Positions 39,001-51,000 are shown, numbered from the stretch's first letter. The stretch: DNA of 64,000 nt from an uncultured Planctomycetota bacterium (GCA_963849325.1 CAWKHF010000001.1:1-64000), one strand, 5' to 3'. Program-made: the numbers.

Positions 39001-42000
39001 GGCTGTAGCAACCTGTGGGCTGCCGTCGAGATCGATGCATCCTGCAACCGCTGCGGTGGGCCGTTCCGAATGCCCTGAAATGGCAGTGGATGCCTGTGCG
39101 GAGTCTGCACAGGTCGCTCCTTCTCAACGCGTATCTTGCTCGTGGAGTCAAGCCAATCGGGATGTCAGAGATGGACCTGTTACCTGTAGCCGATGCGGTT
39201 CGTGTTGCCCTAAAGCAGGCCGGCTTGGAGGCCCGCGTTCAAGCGACCGCCGACGACCACGTCGATGTACGGCGTGGGGACGCGGGCGGCCAGCTCGCCC
39301 TCGGCACCGCGGCCGTGGTCCGCATGGTCGCGGCTCGCGTGTCGCTTCGCCCGGCCTCAAACGACGCCACCGAGGCGGCCCGATGGCTTCGCGAAGAGTG
39401 TGGATTAGCGGTCACGGAAGCCGAACTCGACCGCCACTTGCCTGCCCATGTCGGCTGGCGGCTGGTCTACGAAGTGCCGATTAGCGGCCGATGGCTTTGC
39501 CTCGAAACGCCACGCCTCGGGCGCTGCCGCCTCGGTCAAACCCGGCCGCTGGCACCCAACCCGGAGATTCAACGCATGAGTGACAACGACGCCCCGCTCC
39601 CAGCCGATGTGCAACTGGCCGTCAAGAAGGTCCAGGAACTTTTCGACTTGGACCCGAACCGGCTACCCGATCAGTTCGCCGAGTTCGTCCGGTGGGAACT
39701 CCAACGGCGGGCTCGTGATTTCACGGACGACGCAGTGTTGACCGCTGCCCAACTGAACGATCTCTCTGACCGGCTGGCCGCCTTGGAGCGGTGGATGGCC
39801 CAGTACACGCCCCACTTGGAAAGGCTTGCCCGGACAGTTCGCCCGACCAAGTGTGACATCCCTCTGAACGGCACCCCAAAGGAGGACGACGTATGACCAT
39901 TCCCACGACGAAAAAGGGGCTGAGCGAAGCCCTGGCATCCCTGGAAGCGAAGCGCGAACGGTATCCGCGTGGGGCGGACCTGTTCGGAACCCGCGACTCC
40001 GGCAAGACGATCCTGCTGCTGGCCCTGGCGGACGCACTCCAGCGACGGTCCGAGTTGCCGACACCGACGCTCCGCACCACGTCGCTTAGCGACCAGGCCG
40101 TTCGCCTCCGCGGAAAGGTGCCGCTGGAGACGACAGCATACGACGACAGCCTCTCCGACCTGGACGGGCTGGAGGGGTTTGTTCTCGACCCGAGCGGGCT
40201 GCGGCCGTCGCTGATCGTCTCGCTGCCACATGTCGATCCGGCTCGCGCCAACGTTCCCGCTTGGTTGCAGTGCTACCGCGACCCCTGCCGCCACCTAATC
40301 GCGGTGGGATGGGCTCCCCGCCTGCATCTTGAGCTGTGCTGGTCGGTGTTCTGTTTCTACCTGGAGCAGTTCAATGCGGCCGCCCCCGAGGGCGACCTGC
40401 GGGAACACGCCAAGCTGGCGTTCATGGTGGCCACGAACGCCGACCACCGCGACGCCCTGGGCAGCACCAACACGGACGGGCTGAATCGCCTGCTGGCCGA
40501 CGAACGGCTGGCAGGCGCAAGAGTGACGGTGAAGTGGTCCCGCGGTGAGGCCCGGCTGACGGTGGACGGCGGCGGGCTGCCCAAAGACGAAGGCCGGCGG
40601 GTAGTGGCCTGCCTGCGTGAGGTCATCGAGGACGCCGTGTCCGTCGCCCGCGACGCCGAGGCACCCATTCGGGAATTGCTCCAGGGACTGCGGGCCGAAG
40701 ACCAGGTTCTGGTTCTAACCGGCCGCGACATCATCGAACCCACGCCGGCGTGGGGCCGGCAGGAGTGGCTGGAGGAGATCAACCGTTTCTTCTTCGGGCC
40801 GGGTTTCGTCCGCACGAACCGGAACGCCCACCTGCTCGGGAACGTGGTCGGCAAGGTCCGGGCTGACGCGGCCGTGACCGGCGAACTGCCCGTGTACGTT
40901 CGAGACACGAACTCCACCGGACTGGGTGATCTCATGCCGGTCATCGAAGAGTGGGCCACCGTACACCCCCGGCCGACAGCACACTCGCCGGCGAACCCGT
41001 CGCCGGTCGCCCCCCCGGAGACCCGTCCGACGGTCGTGGCCGAGGAGGGCACGGCTGATCTGCCTGCCTACGTCCGCGAGGCGCTCGGACATGCCGTCGC
41101 CGTGATGCCACTGGCCGTTCTGCTCTGGCTGGCGGTGTCCCGCAGCGTGGTCGGTTTGGGCTGGACGGCAGCCAGTGTACTGGCCGTCGGTGGCGCACTT
41201 GCCTGGGCGCGGAACCGGCTGCTGCCACCGAGCTGGCAGCGATTGAGCGATGGGGGACTTTACCTGCCCTCGACCCGCCGGCCGACCGAGTTGGCTGCCG
41301 GCGGATATTCCTTCCGCCGCGGGCGGTTGGATCGGCTCCGCGATTCCGCATGGGTCGTACCGGCCGGCGGGAAGCGCGGGCGGCTGGTTTACGGGTATCG
41401 GAGCCTGCGGCGATGCGGCGAAGCATCCGAGTTCGCCCACAAGTACGACCTAGTGCCCTCTGCCGCGGCTTGCGTCGCCGTGGGAATCACGCTCCTGATC
41501 CAGCGCTGGATCTGAGTTCCTGAGCTGTGCAGGGACCGCACACAGCCGGTCCTCAAGTTCGGAATAATCCCCGTGTCCCTTGGTTGAACCGCTAACTCTG
41601 TGAGGTGCATCGTGAGCCGAATCGACATCCTCTCCGCCGGTCAGCAACCGCCGCCGGCAAGCCCCGTGAAGCACCCGATCAACTTCCCGGTGATCCTGCG
41701 GGTGGAAACCGCGAAGCACCCGGCCGGCCGGCCGAGCTTCATTCCGGCCCCGCTCCCGGGGGCTGCCACCCTGATCGAGCAGCAGCCCCGCCAGACCGTG
41801 CTAGTCACCGACGAGTACGGCCAGAAAAAGGCCCACGTCATCGATTACGCCGAAGGGGCGCTCCGGGCGCGGACCTCGTGGACAACTGCTCGAAGGAGCG
41901 GGTTGCGGTGTTGCTCAAGCCGGCCACTCCCGTGTTTTGCGGCGAGCCGGGCGTCGTCGTGCGGGCGGGGATGAAGGCCGCCGTACTGACCGACCTCGCC

Positions 42001-48000: not shown

Positions 48001-51000
48001 GGCCTGGCACACCCTTCCTGCGCCGCTGCGGGCCTGGGTGGACCTCGCTGCACCGGCCCCAGCGATTCGCGTGGAAGCACGCCGCGATCCCCGCACCGGC
48101 TACGCCATCCCGACCTGGGTTGTACCCCTGCGACCCCATCCGGGCGCGTTGGCCGAGCGATTAGATCGGTTTTTCGGCGGTGTTAGCGAGCGGCTGCAAG
48201 ATCAGTTCGGCGGTCTACCGATCCGACTCGAATGGGAGGGCCAGTCCGATGGATGAGTTGTTGGTCGATGGCGGCACGGTCGAGTTTACGCCGGCCTCCG
48301 GCTGGGCATGGGGCGGAGGGTGGAATGGCATTGTTTCCGTAAATACCCGTCCGCACGGGATGGCGTCGGAAGGGAAGGCGGTTGCTCTGGCCGAAGACGT
48401 GGAGAGGTTGGCCTCTTTAGTTCTCGGCAAGAGCTACACATCGGACGGTTTCGCCGACGCTCCGGGCGTGGTAACGGCAGCGGCAGTGAGCGTCGATGGC
48501 GGAACGCTGTCACCGCTGGTCATGGTGGACGGGGCCTCCGCAGTCACCGCCCGCACCCAGGGCACGTTCCGAATCACCTGCGCGCCGTCGTTGAAAGCCG
48601 GTTCCCCGCCGGTGCCGGACCCCGCCCCGACCAAGAGCGGGACTTGGCGGGTCGAGCGAACCGGTCAAACCGCTACCCGCGCTGACCGCTAATCGAGGAG
48701 GCATTGTGGCAGTCCAGATACCGCTACTTCTGGGGTTAGGTGCCGCCTCGACCGGTTACACGTCCTGGAGGGCACTTCCGGACACTCGGCTGGAGTGGCG
48801 GCGCACTCCCGGCGGCGGCACATCGACGTACCGAGGAGGGCGCTACTGTGGGCCGGGCTGGGGATTCGTGCGTCAGGACGTAGAATCCGGTCGGATCGCC
48901 GCAATGCCGGACGCCGTCGATGTCATCGACGAAGCTTGTCGCCGTCACGACCAGTGCTATTTCGACCACGGCTGGTTTTCTCGCGAGTGCAACGTGCGAC
49001 TGGCCGCCAACTTGGTCGCGATCATCCGCTCGCCGACGAGCGCGCCACAACAACGGGTAGACGCCGCTGTCATGGCGGCGGTTTTCGCGGTCGAGGCGGA
49101 CTTGATCGACCCGTGGCTTCGTCCGGCAGCGCGTCTCGGCGTGTCCACTCTCGTAAGCATCCGCTCCACGATTGATGAGATGTTCCGGGGGGCGGCCACC
49201 ATGTACTGGGTCATCGAGCAGGAGATCTACCGCATTTACGGGGCATCGCCCCACTAAGCATCAAAGTCCGGCTGCGGCAACGTACCCCGCCAGCGCGGGT
49301 GTGCCTCGTCGCCCGTTGATCGTAAGCCCCTTCCTGTCTTCCCGTCCGGTCCTTCCAGCTTGGGTCGCGGTCGCACTCGGTCCTTGATTCTGTAAGGAAA
49401 ATAGGGTAGTATTCCTTACATGCGCGGAAGGAAGAAGTCACCACAAGCCATTGATTCGAGGATCGTTGCGGCCATTCACGGCCGCGGACGCGGTTCAGTA
49501 TTCGTTCCGGCAGATTTTCTGGACATCGGCAGCCGGGAGGCGGTTGACGTTGCCCTCCACCGGCTTGTCCGGCAGAGAACTATCCGCCGCCTTGCCCGCG
49601 GGTTGTACGACTTCCCGAAAGAGCATCCGGTGCTGGGGCCGCTCGCACCGTCTGCCGAGGACATTGCACGGGCACTGGCGGGCCGCGACCGCACCCGCCT
49701 CCAGCCCGCCGGGGCGTATGCTGCGAACGCCCTGGGGCTATCCGAGCAGGTTCCGGCCAAGGCGGTGTTCCTGACGGACGGCCCGGCCCGGACGGTCAAG
49801 ATCGGCCCGACCACCATCCAGCTCCGCCGGACGACGCCGAAGAACATGGAAGCAGCCGGACGGCTCAGCGGCCTGCTCATCCAGGCACTCCGTGAGTTGG
49901 GCCAGGAGCATGTGACGCAGCAGCGGCGGGACCACCTGAAGCGGACGATCCCGGCCGACAAGCGGCGCGAGCTGCTGAAGGACTTGCGGCTCGCCCCGGC
50001 GTGGATGCACCCGATCTTCCGCGAACTCGCCGGGGAGGAAGCATGAAGCTCGGCTTTCTGGCGTTGCCCGAGGACGAACGCCGCCTGTACATCGAGCAGG
50101 CGGCGGTTCGCCGTAACCTGTCCCCGGTGATCCTGGAGAAGGACTTCTGGGTGTGCTGGCTGCTCGGCATCCTCTTCGAGTCCGAGTTCGCCGGAAGCCT
50201 CGTGTTCAAGGGCGGCACGTCGCTGTCGAAGGTCTTCGGCGTCATCGACCGGTTTTCGGAAGACATCGACCTGTCGCTATCGCCTGACTTCCTGAAACTG
50301 CCGGAAGCAGGCACGAGCCGCAACCAGGCCAACAAGTGGATGACCAGGGCCGAGGCCGCTTGCGGCATCGCCGTGCAGAACCAGATCGCACCGGCGCTGG
50401 AAACCGCCGTGGCGGGGATTCTCGGCCGAGGTGACCGCGCGTGGTTCGAGTTCCTGACCGATCCCGGCACGCATTCGCCGGTGTTGCTGTTCCACTACCC
50501 CTCGGCCCACCCGACGGGGTTCGAGTATCTCAACCGCGCGGTCAAGCTGGAGTTCGGCTCGCTGACCGACCAGCAGCCGGTCGGCCGCCATCCGGTAAAA
50601 CCGTGGGTAGCCGAAGTGTTACCCGCCGCCTTTCCCGACTGGAAATGCGAGGTCGTCGCCCTGGAAGTGGAGCGGAGCTTCTGGGAGAAGGCGACGATCC
50701 TCCACACCGAGTACTACCGGCCGACCGACAAGCCGACGCCGGATCGGTTCTCGCGGCACTATGCCGACACGGCGGCACTAGCGAAGCACCCGGCTGCGGG
50801 TAAAGCGGTGGACCAGCACGAGCTACGCCGCCGCGTCGTGCAGTGGAAGAGCCAGTTCTTCGGCAGTTCGTGGGCGAACTACGACCGCGCAAAGCCCGGC
50901 ACGTTTCGCCTCGTCCCGCCGCCCGAGCGGCTGCCCGCGCTGCGGCGTGACTACCAGGCGATGCGGGATATGTACCTTTCCGAGCCTGCCAGTTTCGAGG

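What a model noticed while it worked through the whole genome (the two positions that open the first line are those of the whole stretch)
39162..49257. Minimal, highly divergent T6SS-like injection cluster of Planctomycetota with no membrane complex
A 10-kb run of about 11 same-strand genes encodes a contractile injection system that family models barely see: a TssC-fold sheath (42153-43798) behind a small gene in the TssB position, two adjacent tube genes (43858-44858), VgrG, a single T6SS-baseplate-fold gene, a spike tip, a P-loop protein with C-terminal membrane helices, and two likely cargo genes (nuclease-like, phospholipase-A2-like). No TssK, TssL or TssM match exists in the genome, so this looks like a reduced T6SS lineage of planctomycetes, perhaps anchored by the P-loop membrane protein.
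Evidence so far: Models built on alignments of relatives: sheath (pLDDT 74, call 113) has VipA/VipB sheaths as its top six Foldseek hits (best E 2.7e-7, call 118); first tube gene (pLDDT 73, call 137) hits Hcp1 (E 1.5e-6, call 142); baseplate gene (pLDDT 82, call 140) hits two chains of the T6SS TssK-F-G baseplate 6n38 (E 4.9e-9, call 147). Second tube gene: gp19/Hcp look-alikes at 0.87-0.92. Pfam gives only weak VgrG (1.7e-5), CIS_spike_tip (1.7e-4) and PLA2 (0.049) hits. Two Pirellulaceae MAG loci (L120, L122) hold homologues of 11 of this cluster's called ORFs, core in the same order, at 28-44% identity. Sheath relatives: 21 of 1.84 billion representatives; named ones are Planctomycetota. 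VipB, TssK, DotU [...]
(Added by a program. Inside this text positions count along the whole contig: contig position 1 is position 1 of the stretch shown here. "Call 12" and the like, gene names such as g00115 and contig names such as C1 are that model's own, and its searches are not shown. The text may have been shortened before it was handed on; [...] marks where a part breaks off. The agent that wrote the report below was given it as the finding of a first reader that could run no searches.)

Follow-up and report, generated by a model that had tools for sequence, protein, structure and literature searches.

The report
Stripped-down mobile T6SS-type injector
A compact, mobile set of eleven genes in a few planctomycete bacteria appears to build a spring-loaded molecular syringe of the type VI secretion kind, yet it lacks the usual parts that anchor such syringes in the cell envelope, so it may be a new minimal version of this machine.

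Summary
The 11-gene cluster is real. Intact orthologues in the same order occur in two other Planctomycetota genomes (G722, G585), and every gene is under purifying selection (dN/dS 0.14-0.38). The four breaks are single-base indels at this assembly's background rate. The sheath is TssC-type: a model of a natural fusion homologue ranks nine T6SS sheaths first (Z 23.4-24.9), and the family weakly hits the Bacteroidota TssC model. New: the first gene (39162-39896) carries a TssG-like wedge core, so the baseplate has two genes, not one. TssK, TssL, TssM, TssA and VipB models find nothing in G000 or the 100%-complete G585. The proposed anchor is not universal: G585's P-loop protein, and its whole cluster, has no membrane helix. 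The P-loop domain resembles DO-GTPases and, weakly, TssM's cytoplasmic domain. The cluster sits on mobile islands, moved between distant hosts and is rare (1 of 301 genomes of one family). Tube, TssB and TssF identities were not confirmed by my own folds. Best reading: a minimal, divergent T6SS-lineage injector docked through the P-loop protein. A self-acting cytoplasmic machine is the main rival, because no immunity genes are present.

The parts
39162..39896 (+). TssG-like baseplate wedge subunit: core domain in residues ~1-135, then an unassigned C-terminal helical region; lacks TssG's N-terminal half
   Evidence: Model of the L001 orthologue (mean pLDDT 60.7, 78-95 over most of 1-110, loop 32-51 and much of the C-terminal half under 50). 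VIA wide search: top 7 of 48,161 chains are CIS wedge proteins; TssG 6n38_G Z 7.7 with the longest alignment, 115 residues. Foldseek top hit TssG 6giy_C, E 0.019. Chains shown to be TssG. Profile vs 31 TssG sequences E 0.0055 over 118 columns; reversed control E 0.3; 14 control windows E 0.057 or worse.
39893..41515 (+). P-loop protein of the TRAFAC-GTPase type (Walker A GTRDSGKT), with three C-terminal hydrophobic segments here; candidate docking adaptor or switch
   Evidence: ESM Atlas nearest named clusters DO-GTPase1/2 at 0.85-0.86, lead only. hhalign vs DO-GTPases E 4.9e-5 (23 columns, Walker A only) and vs TssM cytoplasmic domains E 0.0067 (44 columns, including the helix before Walker A). 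Hydrophobic segments 397-415, 419-437, 518-536; absent in G585.
41612..42132 (+). Small sheath subunit in the TssB position (split by an indel near 41866)
   Evidence: Its orthologue matches the N-terminal extension of a natural fusion to the large sheath subunit (P0025, E 3e-9; no BLAST match to the second fusion P0024). No direct sequence match to canonical TssB.
42153..43798 (+). TssC-type large sheath subunit (split by an indel near 42884)
   Evidence: Family of 22 true hits among 1.84 billion representatives (a 23rd hit, P0031, matches only a short repeat). Model of P0025: Foldseek best IglB 3j9o_B E 3.1e-7; VIA top nine are TssC/VipB/IglB chains, Z 23.4-24.9, against 22.8 or less for single-chain sheaths. 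PF17541 hit by 4 of 23 members, best E 2.3e-6.
43858..44353 (+). Putative tube protein 1 (split by an indel near 44004)
Evidence: Position and size; conserved in L001 and L005.
44382..44858 (+). Putative tube protein 2 (Hcp-like)
   Evidence: Position and size; 54 columns align in register with the C-terminal half of Hcp but E 0.072 (reversed control 0.64); no PDB sequence hit. Inferred.
44922..45497 (+). PD-(D/E)xK nuclease-like protein, conserved between tube 2 and VgrG; no adjacent immunity gene
   Evidence: Motif PDLAD-x-E-VKP invariant in 3 of 3 loci. Tox-REase-9 E 0.0024 for the G585 copy. dN/dS 0.16. Overlaps the VgrG start by 28 nt.
45470..46936 (+). Short VgrG-type spike (488 aa)
   Evidence: PF04717 E 1.7e-5, PF05954 E 1.4e-4; VgrG_rel E 3.9e-7; profile hits G722's canonical T6SS VgrG at E 1.2e-8.
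46933..48256 (+). Putative TssF-like baseplate wedge subunit (split by an indel near 47298)
Evidence: A co-linear 381-column alignment to a TssF profile with matching motif positions, but not significant (E 0.7; reversed control 0.16).
48249..48692 (+). Spike-tip protein (CIS_spike_tip family)
   Evidence: PF19267 E 2.6e-4; 38.5% identity L001 vs G585; dN/dS 0.20.
48706..49257 (+). Secretory-PLA2-like cargo, dispensable
   Evidence: YCGPG and CRRHDQCY motifs visible. PF00068 E 0.058 here and 0.002 for L001. Decayed remnant in G585.
5619..33469 (.). Mobile-element context upstream: type IV coupling protein, TrwC relaxase, tyrosine integrase, ParB, ArdC, large helicase
   Evidence: Pfam E 8e-75, 7e-77, 7e-30, 1e-8, 4e-56 and 8e-10 respectively.
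49420..60672 (.). Defence-gene context downstream: AbiE-type toxin-antitoxin pair, PIN-domain gene, type I-G CRISPR-Cas genes

Best explanation
A minimal, highly divergent contractile injection machine of T6SS ancestry, spread as a self-contained 10-11 gene module on mobile islands of Planctomycetota. Shown by fold or family: a TssC-type sheath, a TssG-like wedge core, a VgrG-type spike and a spike tip. Inferred from position, fusion and motif register: a TssB-like small sheath subunit, two Hcp-like tube proteins and a TssF-like wedge subunit. Inferred mechanism: the F/G wedges ring the spike without TssK; tube and two-chain sheath polymerise in the cytoplasm with no TssA, tape measure or cap; the P-loop protein, encoded overlapping the TssG-like gene, stands in for TssK plus TssM and docks the baseplate on the inner membrane, by its own helices (G000, G722) or by peripheral or host-protein contact (G585); contraction drives the spike outward with the nuclease-like protein and, where kept, the PLA2-like protein. 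Recycling, if any, would rely on host ClpB. T6SS-type structural identity: about 0.9. This outward-firing mechanism: about 0.4.
For: Sheath fold ranks T6SS above eCIS and phage sheaths in three searches of one model. TssG-like first gene by three methods. Same order and no room for extra genes in three genomes. dN/dS 0.14-0.38 in all genes. G585 (100% complete) has no match to VipB, TssK, TssL, TssM, TssA or gp25 models while G722 and E. coli ring, so it has no canonical parts to borrow. A direct TssM-cytoplasmic-domain/TssG contact is reported for canonical systems (PMC6730261 and PMC10433429, passages), and the P-loop N-terminus aligns weakly to that TssM domain. T6SS-iv fires without TssJLM or ClpV (PMC10433429, passage).
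Against: No membrane helix in any G585 cluster protein. No immunity gene beside the nuclease-like or PLA2-like gene in any locus. No TssE/gp25 found, although TssE is described as the sheath initiator (PMC10433429, passage). The P-loop domain scores better against DO-GTPases than against TssM, and both matches are short. TssB, tube and TssF assignments were not significant in my own tests. The TssG Z-scores (7.1-7.7) lie within the range of chance folds and under 1 above KH/OsmC folds. The sheath model is of a homologue 23% identical to the L001 protein, and its first 112 residues have pLDDT under 50.
Confidence: 0.4

Rival explanations
1. An inward-acting cytoplasmic machine: the GTPase-like protein is a switch that, on phage infection or stress, triggers assembly or contraction inside the producer, freeing the nuclease-like and PLA2-like proteins or puncturing its own membrane, so the cell dies or arrests (abortive defence or regulated death).
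For: No immunity genes; no membrane helix in G585; nuclease-like gene conserved like a core part; nearest named relatives of the P-loop are DO-GTPases, proposed switches of anti-invader conflict systems (PMC7159879, passages); neighbours are AbiE, type I-G Cas and a DNA methylase. Streptomyces cytoplasmic CIS-mediated cell death is a precedent (recalled).
Against: Defence neighbours are expected on any mobile island. No GAP1-type partner of DO-GTPase systems is apparent. Spike and tip, needed to pierce a distant target, stay under purifying selection.
Confidence: 0.25
2. Free particles released by lysis, working like an eCIS against protists or other cells but built from T6SS-type sheath parts.
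For: No envelope complex; tip belongs to the CIS_spike_tip family and the spike is short; two tube genes as in eCIS loci (recalled); no immunity needed if the target is a eukaryote.
Against: No gene is left for a cap, tape measure, tail fibre or lysis function, whereas the same Pfam scan readily finds eCIS markers in G000's separate eCIS locus. T6SS sheaths contract on lysis (bioRxiv 10.1101/108233, abstract).
Confidence: 0.15
3. A dependent module that borrows TssK, TssE and a membrane complex from a canonical T6SS, or from host membrane proteins too divergent to recognise.
For: G722 has a complete canonical T6SS-i about 280 kb away; G000 has a separate eCIS and is only 84.7% complete; the cluster itself evades family models, so partners could too.
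Against: G585 (100% complete) has no canonical T6SS or gp25 match and no second VgrG. The module moves between distant hosts as one block.
Confidence: 0.12
4. A decaying relic or an artefact of an error-prone assembly.
For: Four frameshifts in the window; PLA2-like gene decayed in G585; rarity.
Against: Frameshift rate equals the genome background; intact copies in G722 and G585; dN/dS far below 1 with dS of 0.9-1.9.
Confidence: 0.05

Closest known systems
T6SS-iii of Bacteroidota
   Same: Two-chain sheath; the only T6SS family model hit by this sheath family is PF17541, which I recall as the Bacteroidota-type TssC (P0028 27.2 bits, cut-off 25); several tube genes (PMC13213661, abstract); no TssJLM; no TssA in its list of universal components (PMC10781749, passage).
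   Different: T6SS-iii needs TssK, TssE, ClpV and the five-protein TssNQOPR membrane complex (PMC10781749, passages). This cluster has no gene left for them, and the PF17541 hits are weak and mostly in the N-terminal helical part.
T6SS-i (canonical; 57 of 251 Planctomycetota genomes carry a TssG match)
   Same: TssC fold (Z up to 24.9), TssG core, VgrG; a P-loop domain of the same broad class as TssM's cytoplasmic domain (DO-GTPase vs TssM profile probability 96%).
   Different: No TssK, TssL, TssA, TssE or ClpV match in the cluster; TssG reduced to its core; no periplasmic TssM domain; sequence identity to solved sheaths 8-12%.
T6SS-ii (Francisella pathogenicity island)
   Same: IglB is the best Foldseek hit (E 3.1e-7); lacks ClpV and uses ClpB (PMC10433429, passage).
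   Different: Keeps DotU/IcmF-type membrane proteins and many Igl/Pdp parts (recalled); IglB ties with T6SS-i sheaths by Z, so no special kinship is shown.
T6SS-iv of Amoebophilus
   Same: Fires from the cytoplasm without TssJLM and ClpV (PMC10433429, passage).
   Different: Built from Afp-like single-chain sheath genes (recalled); here the sheath is two-chain and TssC-type.
eCIS (Afp/PVC) and Streptomyces cytoplasmic CIS
   Same: No envelope channel; two tube genes; CIS_spike_tip family tip; wedge fold shared (9gtp_1K, Z 8.0).
   Different: No Phage_sheath_1, gp19, gp25, Pvc16_N, eCIS_core or AAA match in the cluster, all of which are found in G000's separate eCIS.
DO-GTPase conflict systems (PMC7159879)
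   Same: TRAFAC-type P-loop domain, with or without membrane helices, in planctomycetes among others.
   Different: No GAP1, tubulin or Hsp70 partner seen; the paper's main text has no occurrence of 'T6SS' or 'PVC'.

Membership tests
T6SS (any of subtypes i-iii) | Large sheath subunit of TssC/VipB type | tested here: met
   (model of homologue P0025); PF17541 hits.
T6SS (any of subtypes i-iii) | Separate small sheath subunit TssB | tested here: inconclusive
   Position and natural fusion to the sheath; no profile match to TssB; residues 1-112 of the model unreliable.
T6SS (any of subtypes i-iii) | Hcp tube | tested here: inconclusive
   Profile E 0.072 and 0.12; no PDB sequence hit; not folded here.
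T6SS (any of subtypes i-iii) | VgrG spike and PAAR-like tip | tested here: met
   the tip matches CIS_spike_tip below its cut-off (21.3 vs 24.1 bits).
T6SS (any of subtypes i-iii) | TssG wedge subunit | tested here: met
   Core domain only. Each score is modest; the methods agree on the same region (TssG ~192-359).
T6SS (any of subtypes i-iii) | TssF wedge subunit | tested here: inconclusive
   Co-linear but non-significant profile alignment; not folded here.
T6SS (any of subtypes i-iii) | TssE/gp25 sheath initiator | tested here: inconclusive
   No PF04965 match in the cluster or in G585; the C-terminal half of the first gene is unassigned.
T6SS-i and T6SS-iii | TssK connector | tested here: not met
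   PF05936: 0 matches in G000 and G585, rings in G722 and E. coli; no unassigned gene of that size in the cluster.
T6SS-i | TssL (DotU) | tested here: not met
   PF09850: 0 in G000 and G585, rings in G722 and E. coli.
T6SS-i | TssM with periplasmic channel domain | tested here: not met
   PF14331: 0 in G000 and G585; the P-loop protein is 403-563 aa with no large periplasmic part. A remnant relationship of its P-loop domain is open.
T6SS-i | TssJ lipoprotein | not tested
   No genome search was run for it; no cluster protein hit such a family in Pfam.
T6SS-i | TssA | tested here: not met
   PF06812: 0 in G000 and G585, rings in G722 and E. coli.
T6SS-i and T6SS-iii | Dedicated ClpV (TssH) | tested here: not met
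   None in the cluster; TIGR03345 over cut-off only in G722's canonical locus; best G585 hit 863 vs 885 bits, read as ClpB by inference.
T6SS-iii | TssNQOPR membrane complex | tested here: inconclusive
   TssN (PF17555) found in none of 3 genomes but no control rang; O, P, Q, R not searched; no membrane-helix protein in the G585 cluster.
eCIS (Afp/PVC) and T6SS-iv | Single-chain Phage_sheath_1 sheath, gp19 tubes, Afp16 cap (criteria in PMC8651086, passage) | tested here: not met
   None hit in the cluster; the same models hit G000's separate eCIS.
DO-GTPase systems | PF19975/PF19993 match and GAP1 partner | tested here: inconclusive
   No Pfam hit; feature similarity 0.85-0.86; profile match limited to Walker A; GAP1 not searched.
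Any active CIS | Assembly, contraction and delivery of cargo | not testable with these tools
   Needs imaging and secretion or killing assays.

The most novel reading that the evidence does not exclude
A fifth T6SS subtype: a TssBC-type machine that has shed TssK, TssE, TssA, ClpV and every membrane-channel protein, keeps only a TssF/TssG-core wedge, is gated by a TssM/DO-GTPase-class P-loop switch that can work with no membrane helix at all, carries a fixed immunity-less nuclease, and travels between distant planctomycete lineages on integrative elements, possibly turned on the producer cell itself as a defence or death device.
Probability: 0.3. Interest if true: 0.88.

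Novelty: new variant of a known kind. Interest (0 to 1): 0.72.

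Why it matters
TssK and a membrane complex are treated as indispensable for two-chain (TssBC) T6SS sheaths; the one subtype without them, T6SS-iv, uses an eCIS-type sheath (recalled). A conserved 10-gene TssC-type system with no TssK and, in one complete genome, no membrane protein would define the minimum needed for such a tail and test directly whether the tail can dock, fire or act without the envelope channel. It also shows a CIS family that standard models (VipB, PF17541 at genome level, NCBIfam) miss. A homologue of the first gene is on record under the name Planctopirus hydrillae (P0047/P0051), a cultured species as I recall, so a culturable carrier may exist.

Tried and rejected
Complex prediction of the TssF-like and TssG-like proteins gave no answer; not used as evidence. 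Sequencing runs: no RNA holder listed; one DNA run with a 0.06 share, whose listed pieces did not span the indel sites. Sequence searches of the PDB with sheath, baseplate, P-loop and tube-2 profiles found nothing meaningful. PHROGs gave no named family; NCBIfam gave no sheath family for 22 members. ESM Atlas gave no usable hit for the first gene. No relatives in viral contigs or plasmids; one partial metagenome locus. A possible circular permutation of TssG (first gene's C-terminal helices as TssG's N-terminal helices) was tested and not supported (E 0.53). Six Planctomycetota loci with weak TssG hits were fetched as possible intermediates; none matched any cluster profile at E 0.05, and those with recognisable sheath genes resemble the VipA/VipB type. 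Alignment A6 misplaced the TssB fragments and was discarded. The tip row used a wrong frame and was redone. No sigma-70-like promoter and no excess of terminators. Earlier-findings look-ups returned nothing. TssB chains did not appear in the fold-search lists, which show one chain per entry in the VIA tables. No sheath tree was built, because canonical and cluster sheaths do not align reliably by sequence.

Full report
Observation. The window holds eleven tightly packed plus-strand genes from 39162 to 49257. Family models barely see them: only VgrG (PF04717 E 1.7e-5, over cut-off), the spike tip (E 2.6e-4), a PLA2-like gene (E 0.058) and a Tox-REase-like gene (E 0.093) score. A scan of GTDB genomes with the sheath's second half found one locus, L001, in a Planctomycetota MAG (handle G722). 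It has all eleven genes intact and in order, about 70% identical in DNA and 52-80% in protein. Four window genes differ from it by single-base indels. The assembly shows 33 frame switches in 66.5 kb of 51 other genes compared with same-genus genomes, so the breaks are most likely sequencing errors (inference; no reads cover them). Against L001 all genes show dN/dS of 0.14-0.38 (rough Nei-Gojobori, dS 0.9-1.9).

Distribution. A profile of five close sheaths found 23 of 1.84 billion representatives, 22 of them credible. Named members are Planctomycetota. With the 23-sequence profile, matches were 1 of 301 genomes of family f4 (G585), 1 of 5 in that genus, only G722 itself among 151 of its order, and only G585 among 400 other genomes of the window's class. 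Narrower queries found 0 of 40 close relatives, including 10 of the same genus, and 0 of 400 phylum genomes. The large searches scored only 3-9 candidates a genome. Canonical TssG, by contrast, is in 57 of 251 phylum genomes. G585 (100% complete, 2% contamination) has ten intact genes in the same order at 19-39% identity to L001, then a decayed PLA2-like remnant. All three copies lie in mobile surroundings: coupling protein, TrwC relaxase, integrase, ArdC, AbiE and type I-G Cas genes in the window; IS-type transposases on both sides in L001; an integrase and a DNA methylase on the G585 contig. Six of nine other G722 genes tested had a best G000 match, at 29-52% identity (orthology not checked), well below the cluster's 52-80%; the cluster is also lower in GC than its G722 surroundings (0.65 vs 0.70). 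Horizontal transfer between distant hosts is the simplest reading.

Sheath. Two family members (P0024, P0025) have an N-terminal extension of about 180 residues; that of P0025 matches the small gene before the sheath (E 3e-9), so the two genes can be one chain. I folded P0025 (pLDDT 71.8; residues 1-112 under 50). Foldseek ranks IglB first (E 3.1e-7); T6SS sheaths align over 397-538 columns against about 260-320 for single-chain sheaths. VIA ranks nine TssC chains at Z 23.4-24.9 above all phage and eCIS sheaths (22.8 or less), and the independent wide search agrees. The margin is small, but consistent. The only T6SS family model that the family hits is PF17541 (4 of 23 members; one above cut-off), which I recall as the Bacteroidota type. 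This is a lead for T6SS-iii kinship, not a test.

Baseplate. Among 48,161 chains its top seven matches are all CIS wedge proteins, with TssG (6n38_G; Z 7.7, rmsd 5.5, 115 residues) giving the longest alignment. Foldseek's top hit is TssG (6giy_C, E 0.019). A profile comparison with 31 TssG sequences gives E 0.0055 over the same region, better than a reversed control and 14 control windows. Each score alone is within reach of chance, as KH- and OsmC-like folds follow within 1 Z unit; their agreement on one region of one protein makes a TssG-like core likely. The two tube genes are likewise unconfirmed here.

What is missing. Models for VipB, TssK, TssL, TssM and TssA find nothing in G000 or G585 while ringing in G722's separate canonical T6SS and in E. 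coli. G585 has no gp25 match and no VgrG but the cluster's. No ClpV passes cut-off outside G722's canonical locus. Gaps between genes leave no room for more genes. Very divergent partners elsewhere cannot be excluded, and the TssN search had no working control.

The P-loop protein. It has an intact Walker A and resembles TRAFAC-type GTPases: nearest named clusters are DO-GTPases (0.85-0.86, lead only). It also aligns weakly with the start of TssM's cytoplasmic domain, including the helix before Walker A (E 0.0067-0.015), and DO-GTPases and that TssM domain are themselves related (probability 96%). It has membrane helices in G000 and G722, but the G585 orthologue stops before them and the next gene starts 4 nt later; no G585 cluster protein has a membrane-like window, while TssL and TssM controls do.

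Cargo. The nuclease-like protein keeps a PD-x-E-x-K motif in 3 of 3 loci and is better conserved than the sheath. The PLA2-like gene keeps its His-Asp motif but is dispensable. Neither has an immunity gene beside it.

Mechanism. Most likely (0.4) the machine docks on the inner membrane through the P-loop protein bound to the TssG-like core, a contact reported for TssM and TssG (PMC6730261, PMC10433429; passages), and fires outward, as T6SS-iv does without TssJLM (PMC10433429, passage). The lack of immunity genes and of any membrane helix in G585 keeps a self-acting cytoplasmic role close behind (0.25). Lysis-released particles (0.15) lack cap, tape measure and fibres. Borrowing (0.12) fails for G585 as far as models can see. 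All steps after the structural assignments are inferred.

Literature and novelty. Nine full-text searches listed no paper describing such a cluster; most subscription journals are not covered and I read no supplements, which could hold unannotated loci. I saw passages of PMC9230969, PMC7159879, PMC10781749, PMC6730261, PMC8651086, PMC10433429 and bioRxiv 10.1101/108233, and the abstract and outline of PMC13213661. The review lists four subtypes. This system works like a T6SS tail but fails membership of T6SS-i and -iii (no TssK, no ClpV, no recognisable membrane complex) and of eCIS or T6SS-iv (sheath type). I rate it a new variant of a known kind, interest 0.72.

Noticed in passing
G000:C4 about 497000-519000 (L040, L041): The window's genome also carries a separate, ordinary eCIS locus: sheath, gp19 tube, Pvc16_N, AAA ATPase, eCIS_core, split VgrG, gp25 and baseplate-like genes.
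   Followed up: partly
G722:C1 about 4925000-4952000 (L016, L017): A complete canonical T6SS-i (TssK, L, M, A, B, two TssC, E, F, G, ClpV, Hcp, VgrG, PAAR) about 280 kb from the divergent cluster.
   Followed up: partly
L077:645-3215 (G216): A natural VipA-VipB fusion (856 aa) in a low-GC (37%) stretch of another planctomycete genome, so TssB-TssC fusion has arisen in that family too.
   Followed up: no
L074, L076-L077, L080, L081 (G185, G216, G233, G286): T6SS loci with divergent TssG and TssF; no match to G722's TssK, TssL or TssM appeared within the fetched 12-40 kb. Whether they lack a membrane complex was not examined.
   Followed up: no
window 5619-33469: Integrative mobilisable element genes: coupling protein, TrwC relaxase-helicase, integrase, ParB, ArdC, SNF2-type helicase, plus a HEAT-repeat gene.
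   Followed up: partly
window 49420-60672: Defence genes directly after the cluster: DUF6088/AbiEii pair, PIN_12 gene, a 331-aa repeat protein without family (52213-53208), and type I-G cas genes on the minus strand.
   Followed up: no
window 38401-39078: SprT-like zinc-metalloprotease gene (HEMVH motif; PF10263 E 1.2e-4) just upstream; no counterpart was seen before the cluster in L001 or G585.
   Followed up: partly
P0024, P0025: The two fused sheath proteins are rich in Lys, Asn and Ile, as proteins of low-GC genomes are, unlike the other members; their hosts are unnamed, so the family may reach beyond high-GC planctomycetes.
   Followed up: no
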